Shown piece by piece: positions 5,057 to 21,192 of a stretch of 64,000 nucleotides of DNA (the stretch's first letter is position 1; each line of letters begins with the position of its first letter). Origin of the DNA: Terriglobia bacterium (GTDB lineage: Bacteria > Acidobacteriota > Terriglobia > Acidiferrales > UBA7541); assembly GCA_963695545.1 (NCBI GenBank), contig OY968796.1:1184001-1248000 (forward strand), written 5' to 3'. A program made the translations under genes and the position numbers. The notes under the pieces were generated by a model. The model saw nothing but the letters and a program-made list of their open reading frames with translations, made no database searches and was not told the DNA's origin.

Positions 5057-6505
5057 ATGTCCGTCTCGCTCAATTACGATGAAGCCGTCCGCTACCTGCT
5101 CTCGCTCGGCCGCGAACTGGCTTCGCCGCAACAAGCCAGCGCCACGAAATTCGGCCTTGAAAACATTCGCGCTCTCGTCGAACACCTGGGCCACCCCGAG
5201 CGCCGCTATCCCTCCGCGCTCATCGCCGGCACGAATGGCAAAGGCTCCACCGCCACCATGCTCGCCTCGATCCTCGATTCCGCCGGAATGCGCACGGGCC
5301 TTTACACTTCGCCGCACCTCGCGCGCATCAACGAGCGCATTCGCATCTCCGGCCGCGAAATTTCCGACGACGATTTCGCCGCCGCTCTAGCGCGCATCCG
5401 CAAAGCCATCGAAGAACTGCTCGCAGCCGGCGATCTCGCGGCCCATCCAACTTTCTTCGAGTGCGTCACGGCCATGGCCTTCGATGAATTTGCCCGCGAG
5501 CGCGTCGATTTCGCTGTGTTCGAGGTCGGCATGGGCGGCCGTCTGGATGCGACCAACGTCATCGAGCCCGAAGTCGCCGTCATCACGCAAATCGCGTTCG
5601 ACCACGAAAATTTTCTAGGTCATTCCATCGAGGAAATCGCCGGCGAAAAAGCCGGCATCATCAAGCCCGGCGCGTGGGTGGTGAGCGCCGCGGAAAATCC
5701 ATCCGCGCGCGCCGTGATTCGCGCCCGCGCCGAAGCCCAGCACGCGCGCTTCGTCGAAATCGACGAAGCGTTTCACGTGAAACAATTGAGCGCCCCATAC
5801 GCCAGCGAAACCGCGAACGAAAGCGCGCCCGATTCGCTGCACGCCACCCACTTCGAGGCCATCGAGAAATCCTCAGACCGCGCAATCGAAATCACCGTGC
5901 CGCTCCCCGGCCGCTTCCAGCAGCGCAACGCCCTCGCCGCGCTCGCCGCAGCGCGCCTCCTCGCCGAGCGCGGATTCCCCCCGGTCTGCGCGGAGCGCAC
6001 TGCTTTAATCAACGATGCGGCCATCGCACGCGGCATCGCGCGAGTCCACTGGCCTGGCCGCCTCGAACGCATCGGCGATCGCCCCGCCGTGTACCTCGAC
6101 GGCGCTCACAATCCCGCGGGCGCGCGAGAACTCGTGGCTTTTTGGGATGAGCACTTCGCCGGCGTTCCAATTCATCTGGTTTACGGCGCGCTGCGCGATA
6201 AGCCTGTCGACGAAATCTGCGGCCTACTCTTCCCGCGCGCCGCCACCGTGATCATCACCGAGCCGCGCCAGCCCCGCGCGCTCTCCGCGTCCGTGCTAGC
6301 CGCCATGACAGCCCATTTCGCACACAACGTCGAGATCGTCCCCGATCCCGCCGTCGCTCTCGAGCGCGCGGTCCTCCGCGCCGCGCCCGAAGACGCCGTC
6401 TTCGCCACCGGCTCGCTCTACCTCATCGAAGACTACCGCCGCGGCTGGGCCAACGCCCACGCCGCCAGCGCTTCCTCGCCGCCGATCCGCGGAAGTTCAC
6501 GTTAA
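5057..6505 (+). CDS. folC: Bifunctional folylpolyglutamate synthase/dihydrofolate synthase
   Basis: IAGTNGKGST, YTSPHL, EVGMGGRLDATN, WPGRLE, LDGAHNP, TGSLYL. Confidence 0.96.
   Translation: MSVSLNYDEAVRYLLSLGRELASPQQASATKFGLENIRALVEHLGHPERRYPSALIAGTNGKGSTATMLASILDSAGMRTGLYTSPHLARINERIRISGREISDDDFAAALARIRKAIEELLAAGDLAAHPTFFECVTAMAFDEFARERVDFAVFEVGMGGRLDATNVIEPEVAVITQIAFDHENFLGHSIEEIAGEKAGIIKPGAWVVSAAENPSARAVIRARAEAQHARFVEIDEAFHVKQLSAPYASETANESAPDSLHATHFEAIEKSSDRAIEITVPLPGRFQQRNALAALAAARLLAERGFPPVCAERTALINDAAIARGIARVHWPGRLERIGDRPAVYLDGAHNPAGARELVAFWDEHFAGVPIHLVYGALRDKPVDEICGLLFPRAATVIITEPRQPRALSASVLAAMTAHFAHNVEIVPDPAVALERAVLRAAPEDAVFATGSLYLIEDYRRGWANAHAASASSPPIRGSSR
5769..5784. promoter_or_regulatory. 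parS-like centromere site inside folC
   Basis: CGTTTCACGTGAAACA, one mismatch to the canonical TGTTTCACGTGAAACA. Confidence 0.6.
5981..6007 (-). repeat. 27-bp hairpin micro-repeat, in-frame copy in folC (encodes PVCAERTAL)
   Basis: CCGGTCTGCGCGGAGCGCACTGCTTTA is the reverse complement of the unit at 20792-20818 with 2 mismatches. Confidence 0.8.
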
Positions 6506-6551
6506 AGCGCTGTGGTACGGAGCGGCCCAAACGCGCGGTCGTAAAGGAGAG

Positions 6552-6776
6552 ATGATGCCCGGCGAATCTCAAAAGCCAGTGTGGTGGAAAATCCTCGTAG
6601 GGCTAGTGTTACTTTATGTTGAAATCAAGAACCATTTTAGTCAGGCGCCCAATCTGATGAAGGCGCGCGATCCAGCCGAGCAGCTGGGGATGAACATAGC
6701 GATGGGATTCTTTATCGCGCTGGGATGCTGGTTACTCTACTCTGGAATCAAGCCAGTGTGGCGCAAAACCCTTTGA
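6552..6776 (+). CDS. Small two-TM hypothetical membrane protein
   Basis: AAGGAG RBS, two hydrophobic segments, lower GC than neighbours. Confidence 0.65.
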   Translation: MMPGESQKPVWWKILVGLVLLYVEIKNHFSQAPNLMKARDPAEQLGMNIAMGFFIALGCWLLYSGIKPVWRKTL

Positions 6777-6870
6777 ATAAAACCCGAGAGTTTGATTTCA
6801 AGCTGACCACCATTAAACCGGCCGTCGAGTTGCCCGCCTCCGCGAGCGGATGCTACGATTGCCGGTTCCC

Positions 6871-7677
6871 ATGGCCACTCCACCACACACCAAGCCGCGC
6901 GTCGGCGTCCCCTGGCGCAACACCGCCGAAGAGACCAAGAACCAGCGCCCGAAGATTGATCCCTATCTCGACGCCGTTCGCGCCGCCGGCGGCGAGCCCG
7001 TCCTGCTCTCGCTCGACCAATCGCCAGAAAAGCTAAAAGGTCTGGCGAACACGCTTGACGCCTTCGTCCTCCCCGGCAGCCCCTCCGACGTGGACCCCGC
7101 CCGTTACGGCGCGCCGAAGCACCCCGAGACGAGCGATGCTGACGCCGCGCGCGAGCGCATGGACGCAACTCTTCTCGACCACGCGCTCGCCACGCATAAG
7201 CCTGTGCTGGCCATCTGTTACGGCACGCAATTCCTGAATGTCTATATGGGCGGCAGCCTGTTTCAGGATCTGCCTGACGAAAAACCCAGCCCGATCCGCC
7301 ACGATCGCGAGGACGACGCGCCCGATTCCGAGCACGCCGCGCGCATTGAAGCCGGCCGCGTCGCGGAATTGGCGCACCGCGTCGGAGCAACTGAATCGGC
7401 GCGCCCCGCGCAGTCCGGCGCCGCCGCCGAACTTGTCGTCAACAGTTCGCATCACCAAGCCGTACGCGAGCCGGGCCGCGACCTGCGCGTTACCGCGCAT
7501 GCCGCCGACGGCACGATCGAGGGAGTCGAATACACCGGCCCAGCCGACTGGATCGTCGGCGTGCAATGGCATCCCGAGCGAATCTCGAACAAAGCCAGTG
7601 GCGCCGAACTTTCGCGAGCGTTGTTCCGCGAGCTGATCTCGGAATCCGCCGCGCGCCGCGCGAAGCGCACTGGCTGA
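6871..7677 (+). CDS. Gamma-glutamyl-gamma-aminobutyrate hydrolase family (peptidase C26, class I glutamine amidotransferase)
   Basis: LPGSPSDVDP, LAICYGTQ nucleophile elbow, NSSHHQA, GVQWHPE. Confidence 0.9.
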   Translation: MATPPHTKPRVGVPWRNTAEETKNQRPKIDPYLDAVRAAGGEPVLLSLDQSPEKLKGLANTLDAFVLPGSPSDVDPARYGAPKHPETSDADAARERMDATLLDHALATHKPVLAICYGTQFLNVYMGGSLFQDLPDEKPSPIRHDREDDAPDSEHAARIEAGRVAELAHRVGATESARPAQSGAAAELVVNSSHHQAVREPGRDLRVTAHAADGTIEGVEYTGPADWIVGVQWHPERISNKASGAELSRALFRELISESAARRAKRTG

Positions 7678-7762
7678 AAAAAAGCGATAGGCATCAGGGC
7701 GGCGCGATCCCGACACCCGCGCCAAACCCGCGCACAAAAAATAGGCACCAGAGAGGAACCGA

Positions 7763-8527
7763 ATGATCTCCTTGGCAGGCAAAGCGGCACTCGTCACTGG
7801 CGGCTCACGCGGCATCGGCGCCGCAACCGTAAAAATGTTCGCGCAAGCCGGCGCCGACGTGGTGTTCAGTTACAACCGCAATCGCGAGGCCGCCGCGCAA
7901 GTCGAGCAGGAAGCGCGCAAGCACGGCACGCGCATCGAATCGCTCAAAGCCGATCTGGGCCGCATGGCCGACGCCAAGCGCCTGGTCGGCTACACGATCG
8001 AGCGCCTCGGCCGCCTGGACATCCTGGTCGCGAACGCCGGCATCTGGAACGCCGTGGACGCGCCCATCGAAAAGTTGACCGAGCGCGAATGGGACGACAT
8101 GATGCGCGTAAATCTCAAAAGCGTCTACGACGTCACGCACTTCGCCTCCGCGCGCATGATCGCGCAGCGCTCCGGCCGCATCATCGGCTTAAGCTCCACC
8201 GCCGGACAGCGCGGCGAGGCCTTTCATTCCCACTACGCCGCCACCAAAGGCGCCGTCATCAGCTTTGTGAAAGCTCTTTCCACCGAACTCGCGCGCCACA
8301 ACATCCTCGTCAATTGCGTCGCCCCCGGCTGGGTCGATACCGACATGTCAAAGTCTGTCCTGGACAACAAGGAAGGCTTGAAGTTTGCCACCTCGGTGAT
8401 CCCTCTGCGCCGCGTCGCCAAAGCCGAAGAGGTCGCCGGCGCCGTACTGTTCCTCGCCTCCGACCTGGCAACCTTTATCACCGGCGAAGTGCTCAATGTA
8501 AATGGGGGATCGGTGTTGTGCGGATGA
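7763..8527 (+). CDS. SDR family oxidoreductase (FabG-like)
   Basis: TGGSRGIG, NAG, YAATK, VAPGWVDT. Confidence 0.92.
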   Translation: MISLAGKAALVTGGSRGIGAATVKMFAQAGADVVFSYNRNREAAAQVEQEARKHGTRIESLKADLGRMADAKRLVGYTIERLGRLDILVANAGIWNAVDAPIEKLTEREWDDMMRVNLKSVYDVTHFASARMIAQRSGRIIGLSSTAGQRGEAFHSHYAATKGAVISFVKALSTELARHNILVNCVAPGWVDTDMSKSVLDNKEGLKFATSVIPLRRVAKAEEVAGAVLFLASDLATFITGEVLNVNGGSVLCG

Positions 8528-9453
8528 AAAATGCGGCGTGGATGAAAGCTGCTGTGCGGACGCACGATGTGGCGCGGATACGAAACGTTGTGCGCACGAG
8601 CTTGCGATTCGCGGTCCTAACTCTCGTAGCGCTGGCCCTCGCCGCCGCGCCGCTCCCGCTTCGCGCGCAGAACGACGAAGCGCTGATGCCCGACCAAAGC
8701 GCCGCCAAAGCCAAAGTCTTGCTGCAGCAGGAAATCGCTGCGCTCGGCGGCCAGGCCTATCTCACCGTGCACGATTACGTTTGCGAAGGACGCCTGGCTC
8801 AATTCGGTCACTCTGGCGACGTCACCGGCTATCCGCCCTTCAAGGATTTCTGGATTCTCCCCGACAAGAACCGCACCGAATGGGACAAAAAAGCCACCAT
8901 CGTCGATCTTTTCGCGGGCAACCAGGGCTGGTCGCTCGATCGCAGCGGCGTCAACGATCAGTCCGCCCAAGCCATCGCCGATTTCCGCGAACAAATCAGA
9001 GTGGATATGGACAACGTCCTGCGCTTTCGCCTCAACGAAGACGGCATGACCTTTCGTTACGCCGGCCCGGACATCGTCTATCTACAGCAGATCGACTGGG
9101 TCGAATTGGTCGATAAGAACGACACGACCATGCGCTTCGCGCTCGACGCATCCACGCACTTGCCGATTCAATACCAGGTGATCACACGAAATCCCGTCAC
9201 CCGCGAGCGCAGCGAGAAAGACACGCTCTATTCCGAATACATCCCCATCGACGGCGTGAACACCCCGCGCAAAGTTTCGCAGACGCAGGATGGCCGCGAA
9301 ATCTACGCCGCCGCTTACACCGGATGCCAGTACAACACCAATCTCGACGCCTACCTCTTCACCAAAAAATCCCTCGACGACCGCTACGCCCAGGAACCCA
9401 AACCGAAAAGCCAGAAGCCGGCGCCGCCAACGCATCCCGCTCCGTCGCACTGA
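8524..9453 (+). CDS. Secreted hypothetical protein (possible LolA-like sorting-protein fold)
   Basis: ATG overlaps the SDR stop; signal-peptide-like VLTLVALALAAAPLPLRAQ; beta-rich mature part. Confidence 0.65.
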   Translation: MKNAAWMKAAVRTHDVARIRNVVRTSLRFAVLTLVALALAAAPLPLRAQNDEALMPDQSAAKAKVLLQQEIAALGGQAYLTVHDYVCEGRLAQFGHSGDVTGYPPFKDFWILPDKNRTEWDKKATIVDLFAGNQGWSLDRSGVNDQSAQAIADFREQIRVDMDNVLRFRLNEDGMTFRYAGPDIVYLQQIDWVELVDKNDTTMRFALDASTHLPIQYQVITRNPVTRERSEKDTLYSEYIPIDGVNTPRKVSQTQDGREIYAAAYTGCQYNTNLDAYLFTKKSLDDRYAQEPKPKSQKPAPPTHPAPSH

Positions 9454-9560
9454 ACATCGCGCCGCTCAGATCCCTGCGCGCCTCCCATTCCTCGCTCCGA
9501 TTGCGTCGTCGAGTGGCTTTACAGAGTACAATCGCTTGTTCTTGAACGGGAGGCTCTCGA

Positions 9561-10157
9561 TTGCGTCCCCTGCCGTTTTCCGCCGGTCCCCTCTACGCGA
9601 TTCTTTTCTGGGGAGCCTACGGCTTGTGGATCGTCCTGGAAACCATCGGGGGCGCGACCAAACGTTCCGGCGAGAGCTCCAAGGGTCGCGACCGAGGCTC
9701 CTACAAGCTGATCATGATTCTGCTTTGGCTCGGCCTCGGATTGGACTTCGCATTTTCCTTTATCATTCCGAAAGCCACGATACTCTGGCACCGGCATTTG
9801 CTCTTCTTCGTGGGAATCGCACTGATGCTTGCGGGATTGGCCTTTCGTTTCTACTCCATGTCGATTTTGGGCCGATTCTTTACCTACGATGTCGCTATTC
9901 GCTCCGGACACACCGTCATCGAGTCCGGACCGTATCGCTATATCCGCCACCCGTCCTACACTGGCGCTTTCGTCACTCTCGCCGGACTGGGCCTGGCGCT
10001 CGGCAATTGGGCAGGCCTTCTCGCGCTTCTAGCCTGCATGGGAATTGCCTATGCGTATCGCGTGCACGTTGAAGAAGCCGCACTCGTCGCGGCCCTGGGC
10101 GAGCCTTACGCGCTTTACATGCGCCGCACACAACGCTTCGTTCCATTCTTGTTCTAG
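9561..10157 (+). CDS. Isoprenylcysteine carboxyl methyltransferase (ICMT) family membrane protein
   Basis: LGRFFT, GPYRYIRHPSYTG, EEAAL, RFVPFLF. Confidence 0.9.
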   Translation: MRPLPFSAGPLYAILFWGAYGLWIVLETIGGATKRSGESSKGRDRGSYKLIMILLWLGLGLDFAFSFIIPKATILWHRHLLFFVGIALMLAGLAFRFYSMSILGRFFTYDVAIRSGHTVIESGPYRYIRHPSYTGAFVTLAGLGLALGNWAGLLALLACMGIAYAYRVHVEEAALVAALGEPYALYMRRTQRFVPFLF

Positions 10158-10231
10158 AACGTGACTTCGCTCCAGTGAATTAAACCTACCGCCTCGGTTT
10201 CCAAATCGTCTAGACGCGCGCGAAGCGGCGA

Positions 10232-10705
10232 TTAAGCTTTTGGGTTGGATTTCGACGATTTTTTGGCCTTCGATCCGGAGGCCCGCCGCGCACCCGGCAC
10301 TTTCCCGATTCGAGCGTCCCCGGCCAGGATCAGCTCGCACGCGCGCAGCGCCGCCTCCTCGAAATCCTGCGCGTCGACTGGAAGCACTTGCCAGCCCGTG
10401 ATTTTCTTCCCCAGCAGTTGAATCGATCTCATATTCGGGAAATCGCGCCGCAAACTTTCGTGGTTTTCCACGTGAGTGGCCAACCAGACGCCGTTGTCTT
10501 CCGTAGAGGTGGGCCTGTCGCGGAGGATCAGAACAATCTTTTCCCCCACATAGACAGCGAGACACCCGAACATGGGATGTGTCCGCGGCGCGAGCGGAGC
10601 GATCGCGTCAAGCACAAATTCGTGCGGCACCCGCTTGCGTTTCTTTGCGCCGAAGAGCGTGTCATCCAGCGAAAGAAAATCCGTATTGCGGCGTGACTTC
10701 GGCAT
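10232..10705 (-). CDS. TfoX N-terminal-domain-like protein
   Basis: PMFGCLAVYVGEKIVLIL motif typical of TfoX_N-like proteins. Confidence 0.55.
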   Translation of the reverse strand: MPKSRRNTDFLSLDDTLFGAKKRKRVPHEFVLDAIAPLAPRTHPMFGCLAVYVGEKIVLILRDRPTSTEDNGVWLATHVENHESLRRDFPNMRSIQLLGKKITGWQVLPVDAQDFEEAALRACELILAGDARIGKVPGARRASGSKAKKSSKSNPKA

Positions 10706-10846
10706 GCGCGCGATGAATCGACTATCCCTTTTCTTCTGCTTCGAGCAAGCTCTGAATGTACCTTAATCTCGCTTCGCGCGGCGAGTCATCGACCGAGCAT
10801 TTTCGTCCGCGGCTTCAAGCAGCCGGTATCGCGGTATAATAGTTGA

Positions 10847-12873: not shown

Positions 12874-14115
12874 ATGCGCGCCTCGGTTCTCCATTCCATA
12901 CCACAACGCCTCGTTCCCGCCTTCAGCACACAGCGTGGCTTGAAGCGCCGCGCACCGCGCAGATCAGAATTGCGCCGTGGTTCAGAAATTCCCGAACGCA
13001 TTGGCGGCCGCACTGGAATCGCGTTGCTCCTCGCGCTCGCAACTTTCGCCGTCGCTGGCTGCGGCGCGCCCGGTGAGCCTGAACCGCCAAAACCAATCGT
13101 GCCGCAACCCGTCGCCGATCTCGCCGCGCGGCAGCAAGGCGACACCGTAATCCTGACCTTCACGCTGCCGGCTCGTTCGACCGAAAATGAGAATTTGGAC
13201 GGCGTTCCCACGGTTGAGATTTACCGCGGCATGCTCGCTGCGGGAGAAGCGGGCCATAAAACAACTACGCATCTCGTCTACACAATTCCTGCCGCGCTCG
13301 TGGATACCTATCTCTCCGGCGAACATTTGGAATTTCGCGATCCATTTCACACCGATGATCTCGCGCGCGAAGCCGGCGCGAGCATGGTGTACATGGTGCG
13401 CACGAACGTCTCGCGCCGGCACGATTCCGCCGATTCCAACATCGCCGAAACGCAAATCTATCCCGTGCCCGCTCCACCCGTCGCGCTGCGTGCTGTCGTC
13501 ACCGAGCACGCGATCGAAGTCGCCTGGGACGCTCCCGCGGCGGCCTCGGGAATTTCAGGCTACCGCGTTTATCGCGGCGAACTCGCATCCGATTCCCCGC
13601 CGAACGAAACCGATCTCGCCAAAATGAAATTCGTTTCGCCGCTCGCGCTCGCGGGACCGGCATCCGAAACAGCCTTCGACGACGCGCAGTTTGAGTTCGG
13701 CCACACCTACGTCTATATCGTGCGCAGTGTGGCGCAATACGGACCGAACGAAGTTGAATCGGACGATTCCGCGCCCGCTATCGTCACCCCGCGCGACACA
13801 TTCCCTCCCGCCGCGCCGCGCGGCCTCGAAGCAATTTACGTCCCGGCAACCGCCGGGGCGCCTGCCGACATCGAACTCTCGTGGGACATCAGCCCGGAAT
13901 CGGACCTGGCCGGTTACAACGTCTATCGCAGTGAACAACCGGGCACACGAGGCCAGAGATTAAACCCGGAATTGTTGCCCAGCCCGGCGTTTCGTGATAT
14001 TCAGGTGGCCGCCGACAAGCATTACTTCTATTCGGTTTCCGCCGTCGATCGGGCTGGCAATGAAAGCTCCCTGAGCCCCGCGGTTTCCGCAGAAGTCCCG
14101 GCGAATTCGCCGTAG
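12874..14115 (+). CDS. Fibronectin type III domain lipoprotein (start uncertain)
   Basis: Lipobox VAGC; FN3-like motifs GYRVYR, DLAGYNVYR, YSVSAVDRAGNES. Confidence 0.8.
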   Translation: MRASVLHSIPQRLVPAFSTQRGLKRRAPRRSELRRGSEIPERIGGRTGIALLLALATFAVAGCGAPGEPEPPKPIVPQPVADLAARQQGDTVILTFTLPARSTENENLDGVPTVEIYRGMLAAGEAGHKTTTHLVYTIPAALVDTYLSGEHLEFRDPFHTDDLAREAGASMVYMVRTNVSRRHDSADSNIAETQIYPVPAPPVALRAVVTEHAIEVAWDAPAAASGISGYRVYRGELASDSPPNETDLAKMKFVSPLALAGPASETAFDDAQFEFGHTYVYIVRSVAQYGPNEVESDDSAPAIVTPRDTFPPAAPRGLEAIYVPATAGAPADIELSWDISPESDLAGYNVYRSEQPGTRGQRLNPELLPSPAFRDIQVAADKHYFYSVSAVDRAGNESSLSPAVSAEVPANSP

Positions 14116-14714: not shown

Positions 14715-14881
14715 TGGGGGGTAGCGCACCCTTTGCCCGCGTCTGTAGTTTTTCAGTCCTCACGCGCAGATTCTACTAATAGCGACCTTCACCCTGGAGT
14801 AACATCGGGCGTCTGTCGGGCTGCGGTGTGCGCAGCCCGGGGTGGCCCATCCTTTGTCCGCTGCGGCGGACAAAGGGTGGG
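14715..14881 (+). repeat. Left long inverted flank of RAYT, ending in REP hairpin GGGTGG-CCCATCCTTTGTCCGC-tgcg-GCGGACAAAGGGTGGG (14840-14881)
   Basis: Imperfect reverse-complement match over ~165 bp to 15480-15645. Confidence 0.85.
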
Positions 14882-14898
14882 TCCGTGGGCTCCCCTTG

Positions 14899-15456
14899 AT
14901 GCCCTGGAATCTCAAATGCTACTACGGCAGCCAAGACCTCCATTTCCTTACGTACACGTGCTACCGGCGGTTGCCACTTCTTTCCTCCGCGCGCGCCAGA
15001 AACGTGTTCGTTGAGATTCTCGCGGAAGTCCGCGATGGCTACGGTTTTCTTCTCGCCGGATACGTCGTGATGCCTAACCACGTTCATCTCCTGATCGGCG
15101 AACCCGCGAAAGGAACGCCTTCCACCGTGATGCAAGTGCTCAAGCAAAGAGTCTCGCGCCGCCTGCGCGCCAGGAAGAGGCGCGCGCCGCAAACGCAACT
15201 CCAGCTCGCATTCGTCGAAGGCGAACTCATGCCGCGGCAATTCTGGCAGCGCAGATTTCACGATTTCAACCTGTGGAGTCACAAGAAAATAATCGAAAAG
15301 CTCGAATACGTGCACATGAATCCGGTGAAGAACAACCTGGTGGAACATTCGAAGCACCGCGCTCCGCGCGGGCCGGCAAAGGACTGGCCGTGGAGCAGTT
15401 GGTCGTACTACGCGAAGGGCGAGCAAGGACTCGTCCGGATCGACGAGAGTTCGTAG
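14899..15456 (+). mobile_element. REP-associated tyrosine transposase (RAYT, HUH Y1 family)
   Basis: HFLTYTC, YVVMPNHVHLLI (HUH), FWQRRFHD, EYVHMNPV (catalytic Tyr), WPWSS; flanked by REP hairpins. Confidence 0.92.
15350..15376 (+). repeat. 27-bp hairpin micro-repeat, in-frame copy within RAYT
   Basis: CGAAGCACCGCGCTCCGCGCGGGCCGG vs TAAAGCAATGCGCTCCGCGCAGGCCGG, with a compensatory T-A to C-G change in the stem. Confidence 0.75.
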
Positions 15457-15479
15457 AAGCGATCCCGGAAATCGAAAGC

Positions 15480-15645
15480 CCCACCCGTTGTCCGCTGCGG
15501 CGGACAAAGAATGGGCACCCCGGGCTGCACAAGGCGCAGTCCGCCAGACGCGCCACGTTACTCCAAGGTGAAGGTCGTTAGTGGTATCATTCGCGCGTGG
15601 AGCACGAGAATCGCGAGACGCCCATATAGGGTCTGCCACCCGCCC
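15480..15645 (-). repeat. Right long inverted flank of RAYT with REP hairpin (15480-15520)
   Basis: CCCACCCGTTGTCCGCTGCGGCGGACAAAGAATGGGCACCC then sequence complementary to the left flank, ending CCACCCGCCC. Confidence 0.85.
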
Positions 15646-16119
15646 GTGCAGAACGTACAGAGCTTCCGCGCTTCCCCGGGGTGCACGGCAGCAGTCACAG
15701 CCCTCTCGACGGTTGCCGGAGCCTACGCCGGGGCATCGGTTCTCGGCCCCTTGCTAGCGCCGGCAGGCGCTGCTGCAGGGGCGCCGGGAGGGCCGCCAGG
15801 CGCCGCCGCGGGAGTCGCGGCGGCAGAGGTCGCCGGCGCTGCGGCAGGCGGGGCTGCCGGCCACGCAATCGCCCCAGCCGTTTCAAATATAATGTGCTCC
15901 TCCGGCACGGGGAGCGGAGGCCAGAGCGGCGGGTCGCGCGGCGGAGGCAGTGGGCAGAGAGAGAACCGGGCATTTAAAGAGGCAGTTAGGAGGATCAATC
16001 AGGATAGACGGGAGCCGTTGACCCCGGACCAGGTTCGAGCGCTTCACGACGAAATCCCGAACCAAGGATTTAGCCTTGATGAGATAGTGGAAATCGGCAA
16101 GGGAATGTTCAGGAACTGA
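15646..16119 (+). CDS. Orphan polymorphic-toxin C-terminal tip (Rhs-CT-like fragment)
   Basis: Gly/Ala-rich hydrophobic linker, GS linker, then a small charged domain NRAFKEAVRRI...LHDEI...EIVEIG; no Rhs core; followed 12 bp later by a small acidic gene. Confidence 0.6.
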   Translation: MQNVQSFRASPGCTAAVTALSTVAGAYAGASVLGPLLAPAGAAAGAPGGPPGAAAGVAAAEVAGAAAGGAAGHAIAPAVSNIMCSSGTGSGGQSGGSRGGGSGQRENRAFKEAVRRINQDRREPLTPDQVRALHDEIPNQGFSLDEIVEIGKGMFRN

Positions 16120-16131
16120 GGACGGAAAACC

Positions 16132-16623
16132 ATGAGTGCTGCAAACGCGGAGATTATGGAAATCGTATCGACTCTAAAGGGCAAGGCGCCCTGGGGGGTC
16201 CGCTTGGGTCATGGTTCGTTCGTAACGATGGAGTTTGGAGACCCGGATCCCAGAGCAGGCGGTCGGGTCATCCATGGCGAGTGGCACCTGTGGCTGTACA
16301 TGTGTAACTGGAGGATCGAGGCCAAACACAGGATTTTCGCGGGATCAAACGACGACCGCAAAGCGATTGAGGCAACGCTGGGAGATTTATCGTTTGACAG
16401 CATCGAATCGATCGACGTTATACAGCCGTCGCTAGATCTCTCCATTCAGTTCCGGTCAGGGATAAGGATACTTACATTTTCGTCTTCCTCTGATCACGAT
16501 GAAGAAGAGTGGAAGCTATTTACCCCCGGCGGGAAATGCCTGCTGGCGTACGGCGACGGCACCTATGAGTACGCCAGAAGCGACGAACCTAGTCCACGGA
16601 CGAGCGGCGGCCCCGAGGCCTAG
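16132..16623 (+). CDS. Putative immunity protein
   Basis: GAGG RBS; acidic 163 aa with GEWHLWLYMCNWRI and EEWKLFTP; directly downstream of the toxin-like tip. Confidence 0.6.
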   Translation: MSAANAEIMEIVSTLKGKAPWGVRLGHGSFVTMEFGDPDPRAGGRVIHGEWHLWLYMCNWRIEAKHRIFAGSNDDRKAIEATLGDLSFDSIESIDVIQPSLDLSIQFRSGIRILTFSSSSDHDEEEWKLFTPGGKCLLAYGDGTYEYARSDEPSPRTSGGPEA

Positions 16624-16626
16624 ATC

Positions 16627-16654
16627 GGCGGGTGGCGCAGCCTTTGACGTGAGG
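16627..16654 (+). repeat. REP half-site closing the toxin/immunity cassette
   Basis: GGCGGGTGG is the exact reverse complement of CCACCCGCC at 15636-15644; 16630-16654 matches 14690-14714 at 21/25. Confidence 0.75.
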
Positions 16655-16732
16655 GTGGCCCTCGATAAGAACGAAGGCGCTGTCAAGGCGCAGAACGCAC
16701 GTCCCGGTGTTTTACCACCGCGGCGTTGCCAC

Positions 16733-16908
16733 AGAAGATGGAGGACCAAGACTCTGGAAATCTCACGGTAAATCATTTCGCTATGCCCCACACCAACCGT
16801 ATTCGAATAATAACTTATAGATAATATTGACATTACATTGCCGCCCGTGCTATCATGTTGCATGAGCCTCGTACCGCACCTCTCATCCGCATTCCCGCGC
16901 AAGATTTT
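16733..16908 (+). repeat. 176-bp promoter-bearing element, copy 1 (TTGACA 16827-16832, TATCAT 16851-16856)
   Basis: Ungapped inverted homology to 21222-21397, including a 28-bp exact core TAAATCATTTCGCTATGCCCCACACCAA. Confidence 0.85.
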
Positions 16909-17395
16909 TCCGTTCGGGCCCGGCTCAGCCGCGCAAATCCTGGCGGACAACTTTACGCCCGCACGTCGGAGCCTGCCTGCCGCCCGCCCTGCTCGGCCTA
17001 CAAAATCCCATCGATTGACCACAACCGAACCGTGCTTACCCGCACAAACGCGTCGCCGTAAACCGCTGATTCCAAACCAAATGCAAAAGAGTGCGCATCT
17101 TGCTGAAAATAAACGCTCGCAAGCCCATTGCGCTCAATCTCTTGCGCACTCTTTCTCACTCTTTTCCCGCAAGCCCTGTATTTGCCGCTCTTACGCAAAA
17201 GATACCCGGGGGTGTACCCCCCTCCAGCCGCGATCTCGCTCCCGCAACACGCATCACAAGCTCATCTCAGCCCGCAGTGACGGGGAGGTCGGCTCTCGGC
17301 GTTTCGACGGTCAAAACCTGCGTCCCACTGGCTGCGTGGAAGGCCTTCCGCGGTTCCTGTAAACTATCCGCGGCACAACGCCTAAAAGGGACATC

Positions 17396-18208
17396 ATGAA
17401 ATTTTGCCGATTCCAATTGCTTGAATTCAATGCCGCCGCGGCCGGCCGCTCCGGCGAAACCGTGCATCCCGAGCCGCGCATCGGCCGCGTCGAAGGCGAC
17501 ACGGTTCACGAACTCTCCGGCAGCCTGCTTGGCGAGAACAAGGCTTCCGGCCACACGTGGAAACTTTCCGAAGTGGCTCTGCTGCCGCCGTCGGTGCCCA
17601 CCAAAATCGTTTGCGTCGGGCGCAATTACCTCGAACACGCCGCCGAATTCAACAGCGAAGTTCCCAAGGAGCCGCTGATCTTTCTGAAACCGCCCTCCGC
17701 AATTATTGCGTCCGGAGAAACAATCGTTCTGCCCGCGATTTCCAAGCGCGTCGATTACGAAGGCGAGCTGTGCGTGGTGATCGCGCGGCGCTGCCGAAAA
17801 TTGTCCGATACGGACGACGTTCGCCCGTACATCGCCGGATACACCTGCTTGAACGACGTCAGCGCGCGCGATTTGCAATTCACGGATCCGCAATGGACGC
17901 GCGCGAAAGGATTTGACACGTTCTGCCCGTTCGGTCCCGTGCTCGAGACTGAACTCGATCTCAAGCACACCACGGTTGAGACTTACCTCAATGGCGTTAA
18001 GAAACAGTCCGCGCCGACCACGGACATGATTTTTTCCGTTGATGTTATAATTCGCTGGATCTCGCGCGTGATGACGTTCGAGCCGGGCGACATCATTGCC
18101 ACTGGCACGCCCTCGGGCGTCGGTCCGCTGGCCGCGGGCGACATCGTGGAAGTCGTCGTCAGCGGCGTCGGCACGCTGCGCAATTCGGTTCAGGCGGCGA
18201 ACTCTTAG
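17396..18208 (+). CDS. Fumarylacetoacetate hydrolase family protein
   Basis: KIVCVGRNY, FLKP, DYEGEL, NDVSARDLQ, AKGFDTFCPFGP, TGTPSGVG. Confidence 0.95.
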   Translation: MKFCRFQLLEFNAAAAGRSGETVHPEPRIGRVEGDTVHELSGSLLGENKASGHTWKLSEVALLPPSVPTKIVCVGRNYLEHAAEFNSEVPKEPLIFLKPPSAIIASGETIVLPAISKRVDYEGELCVVIARRCRKLSDTDDVRPYIAGYTCLNDVSARDLQFTDPQWTRAKGFDTFCPFGPVLETELDLKHTTVETYLNGVKKQSAPTTDMIFSVDVIIRWISRVMTFEPGDIIATGTPSGVGPLAAGDIVEVVVSGVGTLRNSVQAANS

Positions 18209-18239
18209 CGCCAGCCGCGATGCGCGGACAAACAGGAAT

Positions 18240-18707
18240 GAATTGAAGGCGCTCACCGACGATTGGAGGCTCCTTGCCGCAGCGGGCGCGGCCGTCGCGG
18301 TGGCGATTGCCGTCGCGTCGTACGCGAAATTTCGCCGCCGCCCCGATGCCGACGAGATCGAGCGCAGGCGGCGCGCGCACGTGAATCAGATAGGACGCAT
18401 CGCCGAAGGACGCGTCACGGAACTCGCGGAGGTTCCGCCGTCCGCCGCGCCGAACGCTCGCTTCGGGATGTTTCGCGGCGCCGACAAAAATTCCGCCAAC
18501 CGCGCGGCGCGCAACCGAAAACTTCTCTGGTACACCTACTCGATTTCCGGCGTCACGTACGAAACCGCGCAGGACATCACCGGTCTTGAACATCGCGCCG
18601 CCGGACGCGGGCAATTGCTCTCCGGTCAACTAGCAAGCGTGAAGTACGATCCGGCGAACCCGAGCAATTCCATCCTGGTATCGGAAGACTGGTCGGGCCT
18701 GCACTAG
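18240..18707 (+). CDS. Membrane-anchored hypothetical protein (start uncertain)
   Basis: N-terminal TM helix; YTYSISGVTYE...VKYDPANPSNS resembles DUF3592-type OB-like domains. Confidence 0.6.
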   Translation, partial: ELKALTDDWRLLAAAGAAVAVAIAVASYAKFRRRPDADEIERRRRAHVNQIGRIAEGRVTELAEVPPSAAPNARFGMFRGADKNSANRAARNRKLLWYTYSISGVTYETAQDITGLEHRAAGRGQLLSGQLASVKYDPANPSNSILVSEDWSGLH

Positions 18708-18762
18708 CTCGCATCGCGCACCGCGCTCGAATCAACTGAAGCGGCGGAGACCGCTGATTCAG

Positions 18763-19047
18763 ATGTCGCAAATGCCCCGAAAAATCGCGATCGGCGTGTT
18801 CGCAGTGGTCGCAGCATTCAGCGTTCTGCTGGCTGCATCGGTCGCGGTTGTTTTTGCCACGCTGCGCATCGAGCGCATCGCAGCTCCTGCCGCGCACGCG
18901 GTCGCAGCCTTCGGCGAGCTGATTCTTGGCGCGGCCGTGCTGCTCGTGGCCGTCTACATCTCGACGCGCGTCGTCGTTCGCTCCCTCGCGACGGAAGTCG
19001 GCACTACTGGACGGCGCGACCTAACACCTCCCAAGCAAAAACCCTGA
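18763..19047 (+). CDS. Small two-TM hypothetical protein
   Basis: GGAG RBS; two hydrophobic helices. Confidence 0.55.
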   Translation: MSQMPRKIAIGVFAVVAAFSVLLAASVAVVFATLRIERIAAPAAHAVAAFGELILGAAVLLVAVYISTRVVVRSLATEVGTTGRRDLTPPKQKP

Positions 19048-19570
19048 AAGATTGGTGGGTAGGATGTATCAGTCCTCCACGGCGGGCTTCGATCCGCTCT
19101 GACAATCTCATTTGGAGAACGTTTCCCGCGATCGCCTGGAAGGACTCAACCAGAGGAGTGAGATCAATCCTGGCCGGATCATGCTCATATCCGATTACGA
19201 GTACCGCTCGACGCTCAGACCCTGAATACTCCAGCAGTTTGTAGCAATCGCCGATCGTGCTGACGTTTCCGGGATAGGGGTGTAAAAGATTGACCGACCA
19301 ATTCTCCGCTTCCTTGCCGTTGTCTCCAAATGGACGCGTGATCTTGACTTCGACTGCCCACTCGCCCGGGACGAGGAGATCTGAAGTTCTCTTTGTCCGG
19401 ACGCTCCCCCGATACCTCGGCAGCGTGTTTAAGTGCAATGAGATGCGCTTGACCAACTGAGGTTCGCCATACGGTCCAACACCCGGCTGGAACGCCCGAA
19501 AGTTCTCGTGAGACGCATCGACCTGAACGAGCGCGTCGCTGATATCCGAGACTAGTTCTTGCAAGGTCAT
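19004..19570 (-). CDS. Hypothetical protein, possible PD-(D/E)XK nuclease fold
   Basis: E(PQLV)...SDLLVPGEWAVEVK matches the (P)D-x(n)-EVK pattern. Confidence 0.5.
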   Translation of the reverse strand: MTLQELVSDISDALVQVDASHENFRAFQPGVGPYGEPQLVKRISLHLNTLPRYRGSVRTKRTSDLLVPGEWAVEVKITRPFGDNGKEAENWSVNLLHPYPGNVSTIGDCYKLLEYSGSERRAVLVIGYEHDPARIDLTPLVESFQAIAGNVLQMRLSERIEARRGGLIHPTHQSFRVFAWEVLGRAVQ

Positions 19571-19626
19571 TGGCGAACCATTGTGAGAAGCGATTAGATG
19601 GCCAGTACCGCCTTTCCCTCCCTGAG

Positions 19627-20754
19627 CTACTGCTGTGGCGGAGGCGCTTCGGAGGGAGGCTGAGAATCGGGCGGAGGCGCGCCAGGGGCGGGCGGCGCAG
19701 CGGGCGTGGCGGTGATTTCGGGAAGGCGGCCGGCGGATTCGATGACTTGCTGCGCGAGATAATTTTCAACCTTAGCTTCATCGCGCGCTTCGGTGAGATA
19801 GGCGGTGCGCAGCAATTGCTCTTTGCGCGTGCGCAGGGCGTCGCGAATGGTTTGCTGTACGGATGGATCGTTCAGATCGCGCTGGCCGGGCGCTTCCTTG
19901 GAGATGAGCTTCAGGATGCGGTAGGAATCCGGGAGGACGATGACGTCACTGATCTCGCCGGGCTTAAGCGCCATTACTGCTTTTTTAAGCGCGGGATTGC
20001 TTTGGCCCAGCGAGGATTCCGGAACGTAACCGAGGTCGCCGCCGGAGCCGGCAGTCTGCGGATCTTCGGAATAATCCATGGCCAATTCCGAAAAATCCGC
20101 GCCGCTTTTCAGTTGCTGCATGAGCATGGCGACTTTGCGGCGAGCCTCAGCGTCGGTGGTGGCGTCGTCGTTCTTGCGATTGCGCACTTCGGGATCCTTG
20201 TGCGGCGTGACCACGATTTGCGCGAGGCGGTATTGGGTTTCCGCAACGTTGAACTGCTGGCGGTTCTCATTATAGAAGTCGGTGACGTCCTGATCGGTGA
20301 TGGTGACTTTGGAATTGACTTCGGCGTTGATGAGCTTCTGGATGGAGAGCTCGCGGCGAATATCTTTTTTGAGGTCGTCAACGGTGACGCCGCGCGCCTG
20401 CAACTGGCGTTGAAATTCATCGTCGGTGTAAGGACTCTTGAATTCGGTGAATTTATCCTCGACATCTCCATCGGAAGCGGACAGGCCGAGTTTCTGGGCG
20501 CGCTCGAGCAGAATTTCGTTGTTGATGAGGTCGTCGAGGATATTGAGCATGAGCGAGAGCGCTTCTTCGTGGGAGGGCATTTGCGCTTCGGGATTGACCC
20601 GCGTGCGGTAATACTGCTCGACCTCGCTGCGCTGAATCTGCGTGCCATTCACTTCGGCCCACACGTCGGGCGAAGGAGCTTCGCCCTTGCGACAGCCGCC
20701 CGCCCAGGCCACGGTCGCCACGATCAGTGCTGCCGAAATCAGCCGCTTTTGCAT
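19627..20754 (-). CDS. SurA/PrsA-like parvulin peptidyl-prolyl isomerase lipoprotein
   Basis: Lipobox AGGC, SurA_N region, FSELAMDYSED..GGDLGY rotamase motif. Confidence 0.9.
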   Translation of the reverse strand: MQKRLISAALIVATVAWAGGCRKGEAPSPDVWAEVNGTQIQRSEVEQYYRTRVNPEAQMPSHEEALSLMLNILDDLINNEILLERAQKLGLSASDGDVEDKFTEFKSPYTDDEFQRQLQARGVTVDDLKKDIRRELSIQKLINAEVNSKVTITDQDVTDFYNENRQQFNVAETQYRLAQIVVTPHKDPEVRNRKNDDATTDAEARRKVAMLMQQLKSGADFSELAMDYSEDPQTAGSGGDLGYVPESSLGQSNPALKKAVMALKPGEISDVIVLPDSYRILKLISKEAPGQRDLNDPSVQQTIRDALRTRKEQLLRTAYLTEARDEAKVENYLAQQVIESAGRLPEITATPAAPPAPGAPPPDSQPPSEAPPPQQ

Positions 20755-20764
20755 CTCGCCTCGT

Positions 20765-20822
20765 TGAAGCAATGCGCTCCGCGCAGCCGATTAAAGCAAT
20801 GCGCTCCGCGCAGGCCGGTGCC
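20765..20822 (+). repeat. Tandem pair of the 27-bp hairpin unit
   Basis: AAGCAATGCGCTCCGCGCAG exact at 20767-20786 and 20794-20813 (period 27). Confidence 0.9.
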
Positions 20823-21013
20823 TACGCCGCTTTGACGACTTTCCCGTCGCGCAGACACGATGTGCATACGCGCACTTGCTTGCGCACGCCGGAGACCACG
20901 GCGCGAACGCGCTTGAGATTGGGAATCCAGCGGCGACGCCGGGCATTATTGGCGTGGCTGATCACATTTCCATACTGCGGAGATTTTCCGCAAATTTCGC
21001 ATTTCTGCGCCAT
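20822..21013 (-). CDS. rpmB: 50S ribosomal protein L28
   Basis: CEICGK..GNVISHANN..RRRWIPNL..VCTSCLR. Confidence 0.97.
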   Translation of the reverse strand: MAQKCEICGKSPQYGNVISHANNARRRRWIPNLKRVRAVVSGVRKQVRVCTSCLRDGKVVKAA

Positions 21014-21138
21014 GTCTGCTCCTTACAGTGTTTCCAGTACGCGTTTCAACAGCCACTAAAACCTACAAAGTATAGCAACGAACGTCACGCCAGCCTAGAA
21101 CGCGGTTTTGGGAAGAGCGATAGGCGGGGGCGATTGTG

Positions 21139-21192
21139 GCCATGCGCTCCGCGCAGTTGATTAAAGCAATGGGCTGCGCGCGGACCGGGGCC
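21139..21192 (+). repeat. Second tandem pair of the 27-bp unit (direct repeat of 20769-20822)
   Basis: 54-bp ungapped match with about 8 mismatches. Confidence 0.85.

What the first reader, a model, noticed from the sequence alone, without database searches (positions are those of the whole stretch)
5981..21192. 27-bp hairpin micro-element inserted in frame into protein-coding genes (folC, RAYT and others)
Seen: unit T(A/G)AAGCA(A/C)(T/C)GCGC-TCC-GCGC(A/G)GGCCGG, 27 bp or 9 codons. It occurs as tandem pairs at 20765-20818 and ~21135-21188. It is inverted and in frame in folC (5981-6007, PVCAERTAL between GFP and INDAAIARG) and in frame in the RAYT (15350-15376, giving SKHRAPRGPA before KDWPWSS). 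Degenerate copies lie at 12941-12967 (LKRRAPRRSE, FN3 lipoprotein N-terminus) and 7392-7418 (C26 hydrolase, 20/27). The stem covaries (TGCGC/GCGCA vs CGCGC/GCGCG) and forms a GGA-triloop mini-hairpin on the other strand. Inference: a very short mobile repeat that spreads in codon-preserving fashion, analogous to but much smaller than Rickettsia palindromic elements, possibly mobilised by a HUH enzyme.
Basis: partly seen in the sequence, partly recalled or inferred. Interest (0 to 1): 0.8.

Follow-up and report, generated by a model that had tools for sequence, protein, structure and literature searches.

The report
Nine-codon hairpin repeat colonising genes
A 27-base hairpin repeat found only in a small group of uncultured soil Acidobacteriota has copied itself about 136 times around this genome, and has landed inside intact housekeeping genes where each copy adds exactly nine amino acids; this is a compact new example of a behaviour already known for REP and Rickettsia palindromic elements.

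Summary
A 29-nt weight matrix for the unit T(G/A)AAGCA(A/C)(T/C)GCGC-TCC-GCGC(A/G)GNCCGG finds 136 copies in the 4.16-Mb genome, against 3 in the reversed-sequence control. They sit at 98 loci: 75 solo and 23 head-to-tail arrays, with a 27-bp period at 34 of 38 junctions.

Orthologue or paralogue alignments show clean insertions of 9 aa, or multiples of 9, in 9 of 13 genes tested: FolC, the Y1 transposase, UvrC, C26 hydrolase, RecQ, a SIS protein, a LUD/Fe-S protein, prephenate dehydrogenase (0/2/4 units across species) and a GGDEF-PilZ protein (0 vs 6 units). RNase R and NUDIX carry element-derived variable stretches. The FN3 lipoprotein and a PAP2 protein are unresolved.

The family occurs in 3 of 6 genomes of the genus and in none of 25 further relatives.

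The proposed HUH/RAYT link is not supported. The window's "RAYT" is flanked by its own 36-nt palindromes inside 139-nt inverted repeats. Two true RAYTs elsewhere carry GTAG REPs. No Y1 gene is bounded by the 27-mer.

Frame preservation follows from the length (9 codons), five stop-free frames and selection.

Verdict: a real, lineage-specific, REP/RPE-like intragenic repeat. It is a new variant of a known kind, and what mobilises it is unknown.

The parts
5981..6007 (-). 27-bp unit inside folC. It is read antisense as PVCAERTAL (FolC residues 308-316).
   Evidence: PWM 41.6 bits. It is an exact 27-bp gain against orthologue DNA. 18 of 19 orthologues lack it. In the AlphaFold model it lies in coil between helices 287-304 and 320-328, with pLDDT <50 at 310-313.
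5057..6505 (+). folC-type gene (Mur_ligase_M at residues 56-299, Mur_ligase_C at 334-453). It hosts the insert in the inter-domain linker.
   Evidence: Pfam; translation.
7392..7418 (+). Degenerate 27-bp unit inside the peptidase C26 / glutamine amidotransferase gene (6850-7677). It is read as TESARPAQS.
   Evidence: PWM 18.0 bits. +9 aa against G004 and G003 orthologues. Pfam PF07722. It falls in a variable gapped stretch against PDB 3fij.
12941..12967 (+). Degenerate unit at the 5' end of the FN3 lipoprotein ORF (12874-14115). Its coding status is unresolved.
   Evidence: PWM 21.4 bits. It lies upstream of the signal peptide and lipobox. The G003 orthologue has a Met later, just before its signal peptide. 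In-frame TTG codons occur at 12940 and 12970.
15350..15376 (+). 27-bp unit inside the Y1 (IS200-like) transposase gene. SKHRAPRGPA replaces a single P.
   Evidence: PWM 36.7 bits. The window copy has 204 aa against 195 aa in two paralogues; the DNA alignment shows a net +27 bp.
14842..15456 (+).
   Evidence: Pfam PF01797; inverted repeats I1, I2, I7 and I11. 6 of the 7 genome copies of the 36-nt palindrome flank the 3 paralogues.
20765..20818 (+). Tandem pair (2 x 27 bp) between the ribosomal L28 gene (20822-21013, -) and a SurA-like PPIase gene (19627-20772, -). It overlaps the predicted start of the PPIase gene.
   Evidence: PWM 38.2 and 46.9 bits; Pfam of the neighbours. Contigs of 4 runs span it with no 27-bp skip; three small differences (one inserted letter, single-letter deletions) near 20786-20793 appear in some contigs.
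21135..21188 (+). Tandem pair (one degenerate unit, one better unit) upstream of the L28 gene.
   Evidence: PWM 16.8 and 30.9 bits; sequence.

Best explanation
This is a lineage-restricted family of 27-bp (nine-codon) DNA repeats carrying a 5-bp G+C stem with a 3-nt loop.

How it behaves:
- It disperses to unrelated sites as an exact 27-bp unit, without target-site duplication.
- Insertion is usually just 3' of a T in a context like RG(A/T)C(G/C)NT, which resembles the unit's own 3' end.
- It then gains or loses units in head-to-tail arrays.
- The unit is nine codons long, and five of the six reading frames of the consensus have no stop. An insertion into a gene therefore adds nine residues per unit instead of breaking the gene.
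- Copies persist where the protein tolerates them: inter-domain linkers, surface loops and low-complexity tails.

Shown: the family exists, it is restricted to one clade, the 27n-bp insertions are precise, copy number differs between sister species, and at least one new copy has an ectopic origin.

Inferred: dispersal uses a single-stranded or hairpin intermediate and a trans-acting factor that is not encoded next to the repeat. The enzyme is not identified. None of the genome's Y1/HUH genes has the 27-mer at its ends.
For: Family and excess over chance:
- 136 copies against 3 in the control.
- 98 loci: 75 solo and 23 arrays of 2-8 units; the period is 27 bp at 34 of 38 junctions.

Clade restriction. 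The pattern AAGCAMYGCGCTCCGCGCRG with <=1 mismatch occurs 64 times in G000, 46 in G003, 19 in G004, 1 in G001 and 0 in the other 27 relatives; controls give 0-1. The exact 20-mer occurs in 55 metagenome stretches and in 0 viral contigs.

Precise insertions:
- FolC +9 aa.
- Y1 transposase +9 aa.
- UvrC +9 aa in G000, and a diverged 27-bp insert at the same site in G003; absent from G004, G001, G002 and G005. There is a 10-residue gap at that spot against PDB 2nrt.
- C26 hydrolase and RecQ +9 aa each.
- SIS protein +9 aa against 5 orthologues.
- Prephenate dehydrogenase: 2 units in G000, 4 in G003, 0 in four others.
- GGDEF-PilZ: 162 bp = 6 units in G000, 0 in G003 and G004.

Ectopic origin. In the LUD/Fe-S gene, G001 has 0 copies, G003 and G004 have one old copy, and G000 has a consensus-like copy 5' of the old degenerate one.

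The element acts as DNA, not as a peptide motif. ORF-internal copies use five different frame/strand combinations: 17, 11, 10, 6 and 6 copies.

Flanks. Upstream of 62 solo or first-in-array copies, position -1 is T in 48 and position -4 is C in 39. Downstream is unconstrained.

Enrichment in ORFs compared with the genome's GTAG REPs: 50 of 136 against 8 of 75, Fisher p = 4e-5.

In-gene copies are no more diverged than intergenic ones (mean 3.0 against 2.9 mismatches, p = 0.76).
Against: - No mobilising enzyme is identified, and no excision or new insertion is seen directly.
- Contigs of four runs (one study, possibly including the source sample) all carry the filled alleles with no 27-bp skip. 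Contigs drop rare variants.
- There is no replication-strand bias (33 against 35 loci), although the GC skew is weak, so origin and terminus are uncertain.
- The coding/intergenic counts rest on a home-made, uncalibrated gene caller. Several 'inside' copies lie near predicted 5' ends and may be upstream of the true start.
- Two of the 13 genes tested (FN3 lipoprotein, PAP2) are unresolved.
- The upstream motif is equally expected from microhomology-guided template switching.
Confidence: 0.8

Rival explanations
1. The 27-mer is a REP mobilised by the Y1/HUH transposase encoded in the window (or by one of its paralogues), as in REP-RAYT / REPIN systems.
For: - A Y1_Tnp gene lies in the window, and three close paralogues exist in the genome.
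- The element has a hairpin, inserts without target duplication and prefers a short upstream motif. These are features of IS200/IS605-type chemistry as I recall it.
Against: - Each of the 3 paralogues is bounded by a different 36-nt palindrome within 139-nt inverted repeats, not by the 27-mer.
- The two 180-aa RAYTs are flanked by GTAG REPs.
- The 27-mer has no GTAG or CGTC tag.
- Only 1 inverted pair is found among 98 loci.
- G003 has 46 copies but no close homologue of the window's Y1 protein (best E 1.3e-4). G001, G002 and G005 have homologues but 1, 0 and 0 copies.
- The small RAYTs have close orthologues in G003 but none in G004, which has 19 copies.
- No strand bias.
Confidence: 0.15
2. 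No dedicated enzyme is involved. Units spread by template switching or ectopic gene conversion. A nascent strand ending in a sequence like the unit's 3' end pairs with a copy elsewhere, copies one 27-nt period, and returns. Arrays then change by ordinary slippage.
For: - The upstream flank of solo copies resembles the unit's own 3' end.
- In RecQ, the downstream flank CGAAAGCA resembles the unit's 5' end CGAAGCA.
- Head-to-tail arrays have a strict 27-bp period.
- Copy number differs between species.
- No cognate enzyme was found.
Against: - The microhomologies at verified sites are only 1-5 nt, and in FolC essentially GAT/T.
- About 100 independent loci from such short homology would be unusual.
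- The sharp clade restriction fits a specific factor equally well.
Confidence: 0.25
3. The repeats are selected protein modules: a peptide linker motif that was recruited repeatedly, rather than mobile DNA.
For: - Many genic copies lie in linkers.
- The commonest reading, (V/G)EAMRSAQ(T/S)G, is hydrophilic.
Against: - The same DNA is read in five frame/strand combinations that give unrelated peptides.
- 75 of 136 copies are intergenic by my gene calls.
- The DNA rather than the peptide is conserved.
- Host genes are functionally unrelated.
Confidence: 0.03
4. It is a chance or compositional effect of a GC-rich genome, or an assembly artefact.
For: GCGC-rich palindromes are common at 60.6% GC. 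Other loop variants of the core occur 20-78 times in the genome.
Against: - The full 29-nt matrix gives 136 copies against 3 in the control.
- The family is also present in G003 and G004 and in 55 metagenome stretches.
- The window's filled alleles recur in contigs of four runs.
Confidence: 0.01

Closest known systems
Intragenic REPs (GTAG- and CGTC-tagged palindromic repeats; Di Nocera et al. 2013, PMC3733652; abstract and passages read)
   Same: Both are short palindromic repeats that are mostly extragenic, with a fraction lying in frame inside intact genes. The paper notes many such genes act in DNA synthesis and repair (uvrA/B, UvrD, polymerases), and suggests the insertions may be neutral because they sit in flexible linkers or loops. 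Here UvrC and RecQ are hit and most sites are linkers or loops. That paper also describes tyrosine transposases flanked by long inverted repeats (TIRYTs), with a sharply defined Acidobacteria group. The window's Y1 gene has that layout.
   Different: - No GTAG or CGTC tag.
- The stem is only 5 bp.
- The units are arranged head-to-tail with a strict 27-bp period, rather than as inverted dimers.
- No transposase gene is flanked by it.
- 37% of copies lie in ORFs by my gene calls, against 11% for this genome's own GTAG REPs.
Rickettsia palindromic elements (RPE; Ogata et al. 2000, cited in PMC3733652 and PMC3184786; the original paper was not read)
   Same: Palindromic repeats inserted in frame in protein genes that remain intact, adding peptide segments. 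Their mobiliser is unknown.
   Different: RPEs are about 105-146 bp (table in PMC3184786), against 27 bp here. No sequence relation was tested. RPEs come from obligate intracellular Alphaproteobacteria; this element is in free-living soil Acidobacteriota. The tandem-array behaviour seen here is VNTR-like.
REPIN-RAYT systems (Bertels & Rainey 2011, PMC3116915; Nunvar et al. 2010, PMC2817692; search listing and abstracts only)
   Same: High-copy, lineage-specific hairpin repeats that are vertically inherited within a clade.
   Different: REPINs are inverted REP doublets tied to a single-copy RAYT that is flanked by the same REP. Here there is 1 inverted pair in 98 loci and no flanked RAYT. The genome's two true RAYTs have their own GTAG REP families.
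Mycobacterial interspersed repetitive units (MIRU) and other coding VNTRs (passage in PMC3184786)
   Same: Tandem units with open reading frames, copy-number variation between relatives, and filled versus empty sites in related species.
   Different: The paper gives MIRUs as about 40-100 bp, describes one between genes of a polycistron, and reports tetranucleotide direct repeats at a filled site. The 27-mer also enters single sites deep inside genes and shows no target duplication.

Membership tests
REP / REPIN-RAYT | Short (20-40 bp) imperfect palindrome present in many copies | tested here: met
   27-bp unit with a 5-bp stem and 3-nt loop (DNA MFE -5.3 and -5.0 kcal/mol for the two strands). 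136 copies against 3 in the control.
REP / REPIN-RAYT | Conserved GTAG (or CGTC) tetranucleotide at one end | tested here: not met
   The consensus TTGAAGCAATGCGCTCCGCGCAGACCGGT holds neither tag on either strand. The genome's other REP families do carry GTAG.
REP / REPIN-RAYT | Copies of the same repeat flank a cognate RAYT gene | tested here: not met
   No PWM hit of >=6 bits lies within 1.5 kb of the two 180-aa RAYTs or the 375-aa Y1 protein. The three paralogues of the window's Y1 gene are flanked by a different 36-nt palindrome.
REP / REPIN-RAYT | Inverted-pair (REPIN/BIME) organisation | tested here: not met
   1 inverted pair within 150 bp among 98 loci. 23 head-to-tail arrays.
RPE-like / intragenic REP behaviour | In-frame presence in intact genes whose orthologues lack the segment | tested here: met
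   9 clean cases of 13 genes tested: FolC, Y1 transposase, UvrC, C26, RecQ, SIS, LUD, PDH and GGDEF-PilZ. 2 cases in variable regions (RNase R, NUDIX). 2 unresolved (FN3, PAP2).
RPE (Rickettsia palindromic elements) | Element length of about 100-150 bp and RPE sequence families | tested here: not met
   The unit is 27 bp. Sequence similarity to RPEs was not tested because no RPE sequence was in hand.
IS200/IS605-type (HUH Y1) single-strand transposition | Insertion without target duplication, 3' of a short specific motif | tested here: inconclusive
   No duplication at FolC, UvrC, Y1 transposase, SIS, RecQ or LUD filled/empty pairs. The upstream preference (T at -1 in 48 of 62, C at -4 in 39 of 62) is loose and also fits microhomology.
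IS200/IS605-type (HUH Y1) single-strand transposition | Distinct subterminal hairpins at the left and right ends | tested here: not met
   A single hairpin per 27-bp unit.
IS200/IS605-type (HUH Y1) single-strand transposition | Orientation bias relative to replication (lagging-strand template) | tested here: inconclusive
   33 against 35 loci. The cumulative GC skew is irregular, so origin and terminus are uncertain.
Coding VNTR / minisatellite | Tandem units with a period that is a multiple of 3, and copy-number differences between relatives | tested here: met
   Period 27 bp. PDH 0/2/4 units, GGDEF-PilZ 0/6 units, LUD 0/1/2 units. Dispersal to about 98 unrelated loci is not explained by slippage alone.
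TIRYT / TIRtron (for the window's Y1 gene, not the 27-mer) | Y1 transposase gene flanked by long terminal inverted repeats instead of REPs | tested here: met
   PF01797. 139-nt inverted repeats, 71% complementary, with inner 16-bp-stem hairpins. Sequence membership in the named Acidobacteria TIRYT group of PMC3733652 was not tested.

The most novel reading that the evidence does not exclude
The 27-mer is a selfish element adapted to live in coding sequence. Three properties let it colonise ORFs several-fold more often than the same genome's GTAG REPs: its exact nine-codon length, five stop-free frames, and scar-free insertion.

It would move without any flanking transposase. Either a trans-acting HUH enzyme reads one mini-hairpin and the same cleavage motif on both sides, or it moves by enzyme-free template switching.

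If so, it would be among the smallest discrete mobile units known in bacteria. It would also be a standing generator of linker-length variation in essential proteins such as FolC, UvrC, RecQ and RNase R.
Probability: 0.25. Interest if true: 0.75.

Novelty: new variant of a known kind. Interest (0 to 1): 0.5.

Why it matters
It gives an unusually clean natural data set on which protein positions tolerate a 9n-residue insertion. There are nine verified genes, with empty, single-copy and multi-copy alleles in sister species.

It shows a REP-like repeat that is not tied to a RAYT and is organised as head-to-tail arrays. That bears on the open question of how 'orphan' palindromic repeats, such as CGTC REPs and RPEs, are moved.

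Different small palindromes have entered the same codon junction in FolC and in the Y1 transposase in related species. This points to insertion hot spots, or to very few permissive sites.

For annotation, it warns that such repeats create lineage-specific indels in marker genes of uncultured Acidobacteriota.

Tried and rejected
- Replication-strand bias: 33 against 35 loci on a weak GC skew; not informative.
- Age gradient within arrays (5' copies younger): PWM scores along the arrays are mixed. No formal test was done and no claim is made.
- Population polymorphism: contigs of four runs from one study (one run may be the source) were laid on window 5001-21500. All span the folC, C26 and L28-SurA copies with no 27-bp skip. 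Contigs cannot show rare empty alleles, so this says nothing about activity.
- Rfam: no family matches at any copy.
- Viral contigs: 0 matches to the 20-mer.
- Phyletic matching of Y1 genes to the element. The 375-aa Y1 protein has only fragments in G003 and G004. The two 180-aa RAYTs have close orthologues in G003 but none in G004. No candidate fits.
- Open-frame proxy on metagenome loci: 19 of 48 distinct ~320-nt loci have a frame open end to end. This is compatible with the roughly 37% genic share but is not a gene call.
- Earlier notes of this scan: none for this genome or this sequence.
- The core match at window 9-19 was rejected as a family member because its flanks do not fit.


Full report
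**Source.** The window is G000:C1:1184001-1248000 of a single-contig genome of 4,159,512 bp and 60.6% G+C. Titles of the nearest public relatives of its FolC name uncultured Acidobacteriota, Terriglobia and 'Candidatus Acidiferrales' MAGs.

**1.
- The 11-nt core GCGCTCCGCGC occurs 6 times in the window against 0.49 expected; 0 of 100 shuffles reach 6. The match at 9-19 has unrelated flanks.
- The core occurs 113 times in the genome. Many of those copies share the flanks ..T(G/A)AAGCA(A/C)(T/C) and (A/G)GNCCGG.
- A 29-nt weight matrix built from 46 seeds finds 136 non-overlapping copies at >=14 bits, against 3 in the reversed (not complemented) genome. At >=18 bits the counts are 112 against 1. 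Both 'degenerate' window copies (18.0 and 21.4 bits) lie in that range.
- The copies form 98 loci: 75 solo and 23 head-to-tail arrays of 2-8 units. The period is 27 bp at 34 of 38 junctions, 32 bp at 3 and 26 bp at 1. Only one inverted pair was found.
- The unit folds as a 5-bp stem with a 3-nt loop on either strand (DNA MFE -5.3 and -5.0 kcal/mol).
- At the closing pair of the stem, T-A occurs 66 times, C-G 26, T-G 17 and C-A 14 among 130 distinct copies. 0 of 2000 shuffles reach the observed pairing. This fits a hairpin, but two subfamilies would give the same pattern.

**2. Insertions in genes are real and come in multiples of 27 bp**

I tested 13 genes against orthologues or paralogues. 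The orthologues were mostly from the five other genomes of the genus, G001-G005. Nine cases are clean.

| Gene | Result |
|---|---|
| FolC | G000 has PVCAERTAL between GFP and I-N-D. 18 of 19 orthologues have nothing there. The DNA shows an exact 27-bp gain that is the reverse complement of the unit. |
| Y1 transposase | 204 aa in the window against 195 aa in two paralogues 87-89% identical; net +27 bp. |
| UvrC | +9 aa in G000. A diverged 27-bp insert with the same ends sits at the same site in G003. Nothing in G004, G001, G002 or G005. T. maritima UvrC (PDB 2nrt) shows a 10-residue gap exactly there. |
| C26 hydrolase | +9 aa against G004 and G003. |
| RecQ | +9 aa against G003 and G004. |
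| SIS/GKRP-like protein | +9 aa against 5 orthologues. |
| LUD/Fe-S protein | 0 copies in G001, one old copy in G003 and G004, two in G000. |
| Prephenate dehydrogenase | 2 units in G000, 4 in G003, 0 in G004, G001, G002 and G005. |
| GGDEF-PilZ protein | 162 bp = 6 units in G000, 0 in G003 and G004. |

- One of the 19 FolC orthologues (G013) is flagged unpublished. Without it the count is 17 of 18.
- RNase R and a NUDIX protein carry element-derived units inside fast-changing low-complexity stretches.
- The FN3 lipoprotein copy lies upstream of the signal peptide, and in-frame TTG codons occur at and just after it, so it may be leader rather than coding. A PAP2 case is ambiguous.
- Pfam places most inserts between domains: FolC, RecQ, PDH and GGDEF-PilZ. 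Others fall in loops within domains: UvrC, C26 and NUDIX.
- An AlphaFold model of FolC (mean pLDDT 83.9) puts residues 308-316 in coil between two helices, with pLDDT below 50 at 310-313.

**3. Genome-wide picture**
- With a home-made codon-usage gene caller (3140 genes, 84.7% of the genome; not calibrated), 75 copies are intergenic, 11 touch a gene edge and 50 lie inside an ORF.
- 26 copies in 18 genes lie at least 150 nt from the 5' end and 60 nt from the 3' end of a well-scoring ORF.
- The element is therefore over-represented in intergenic DNA (55% of copies in about 15% of the genome). It is still far more often genic than this genome's own GTAG REPs, which are inside ORFs in 8 of 75 cases (Fisher p = 4e-5).
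- ORF-internal copies are read in five frame/strand combinations:

| Strand | Peptide read | Copies |
|---|---|---|
| sense | (V/G)EAMRSAQ(T/S)G | 17 |
| sense | LKQCAPRRP | 10 |
| sense | xSNALRADR | 6 |
| antisense | P(V/D)CAER(I/T)AS | 11 |
| antisense | R(S/T)ARSALLQ | 6 |
| antisense | TGLRGAHCF | 0 |

- The consensus has a stop (TGA or TAA at unit positions 1-3) in one frame only. 76 of 136 copies carry a stop triplet there. The six copies read in that frame all carry variants without it, which follows from how an ORF is defined.
- The element is therefore a DNA element, not a peptide motif. Frame preservation follows from its length, its open frames and selection.
- In-gene copies are no more diverged than intergenic ones (p = 0.76). 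Divergence from the consensus ranges from 0 to 7 mismatches, with 17 perfect copies, so the family holds both young and old copies.

**4. Distribution**
- The 20-nt degenerate pattern with <=1 mismatch occurs 64 times in G000, 46 in G003, 19 in G004, once in G001 and never in 27 other relatives of the family and order. Reversed-pattern controls give 0-1. The zero counts include the unpublished genomes G007, G013 and G025.
- The exact 20-mer occurs in 55 stretches of public metagenome contigs and in no viral contig.
- No Rfam family matches at any copy.

**5. How it moves**

Shown:
- Single units enter unrelated sites as exactly 27 bp, with no target duplication.
- In the LUD gene, a consensus-like copy lies 5' of an old degenerate copy that G003 and G004 have alone. 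The new copy therefore came from elsewhere and not from local duplication.
- Upstream of 62 solo or first-in-array copies, position -1 is T in 48 and position -4 is C in 39, giving RG(A/T)C(G/C)NT. This resembles the unit's own 3' end, CAGNCCGGT. Downstream there is no constraint.
- In FolC and UvrC this upstream motif is native coding sequence that is conserved in the orthologues.

Inferred:
- One possibility is a trans-acting single-strand transposase that reads one hairpin and the same cleavage motif on both sides.
- The other is template switching guided by that short homology.
- I could not separate the two.

**6. The HUH/RAYT idea was tested and not supported**
- The genome has six PF01797 (Y1_Tnp) matches.
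- The window's gene and its two paralogues are each bounded by a 36-nt palindrome, CCCA(T/C)CC(T/G)TTGTCCGC-TGCG-GCGGACAAAG(G/A)(G/A)TGGG as seen at the window copy, inside 139-nt inverted repeats. 6 of the 7 genome copies of that palindrome are these ends. This is the 'TIRYT' layout described for Acidobacteria in PMC3733652 (passages read).
- Two 180-aa RAYTs are flanked by GTAG REPs. I call the families REP-A (10 copies) and REP-B (55 copies).
- No weight-matrix hit, even at 6 bits, lies within 1.5 kb of those RAYTs or of a 375-aa Y1-domain protein.
- The phyletic patterns do not match the element.
- There is no replication-strand bias (33 against 35 loci), though the GC skew is weak.

**7. 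Comparison with what is known**
- In-frame palindromic repeats are known. RPEs in Rickettsia are cited in PMC3733652 and PMC3184786; I did not read the original paper.
- Di Nocera et al. 2013 (PMC3733652; abstract and passages read) report GTAG/CGTC REPs inside genes of several species. Many are in DNA synthesis and repair genes, and the authors suggest the insertions may be neutral because they sit in linkers or loops.
- Two literature searches listed no description of a 27-bp, untagged, head-to-tail element in Acidobacteria. Supplementary tables of PMC3733652 were not opened and could list related cases.
- Earlier notes of this scan describe similar intragenic palindromes in other genomes. 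These are leads only, and I did not test them.
- The present family differs in six ways: its size, the lack of a tag, its array organisation, the lack of a flanked transposase, its high genic share, and VNTR-like copy-number changes inside housekeeping genes of sister species.

**8. Verdict**

The finding is real and well supported. The behaviour is of a known kind, the family is a new variant, and the mobilising mechanism is unresolved.

Noticed in passing
L009 (G003 FolC locus); compare window 5981-6007: At the very codon junction where G000 FolC carries the 27-mer, G003 FolC carries a different 51-bp (17-aa) insert holding GTAG followed by the hairpin GGGCGGAG-CTTG-CCTCCGCCC. This is another REP-like family, which has about 10 copies in G000. 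Two different small palindromes have thus entered the same site in sister species.
   Followed up: partly
L022 (G001 paralogue of the Y1 transposase); compare window 15350-15376: A 33-bp (11-aa) insert with the hairpin GCGGGCTCC-AAGT-GGAGCCCGC sits at the same position of the G001 Y1 transposase as the 27-mer does in the window copy.
   Followed up: partly
window 14716-15644; genome 1475699-1476340 and 1478719-1479360: Three 87-89% identical Y1 transposase genes are each bounded by a 36-nt palindrome (16-bp stem). The window copy also lies within 139-nt inverted repeats. This is a TIR-flanked 'TIRYT'-like unit present in three copies.
   Followed up: partly
window 14883 joined to 17025: Contigs of all four runs show a joint that skips 2141 bp, from just after the left hairpin of the Y1 unit to 17025. 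Depth is raised at 17101-17650, which suggests a repeat. It may come from the paralogous loci or from an alternative arrangement.
   Followed up: no
genome 1424782-1425324 and 1387432-1387923 (outside the window): Two 180-aa RAYT genes (49-50% identical to each other) are each flanked by their own GTAG-tagged REP: GTAGCGCCAGCCTTCAGGCTGGCG (10 copies, all intergenic) and GTAGCGGAGGCCTTCAGGCCTCC (55 copies, 46 intergenic).
   Followed up: partly
genome 1474387-1475514 (L253:2387-3514, - strand): A 375-aa ORF has a Y1_Tnp domain only in its C-terminal part (residues 231-321) and an N-terminal 230 aa with no Pfam match. It lies next to two of the Y1 transposase paralogues. Only fragments match in G003 and G004.
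   Followed up: partly
genome 243763-243887 (outside the window): One intergenic array of four near-perfect units has a 32-bp rather than a 27-bp period, because of 5 extra bases (CCGAT) between units.
   Followed up: no
window 56048-59400: 23S and 5S rRNA genes are present, but no 16S rRNA match appears anywhere in the 64-kb window. The 16S gene is therefore not within 56 kb upstream of the 23S gene.
   Followed up: no
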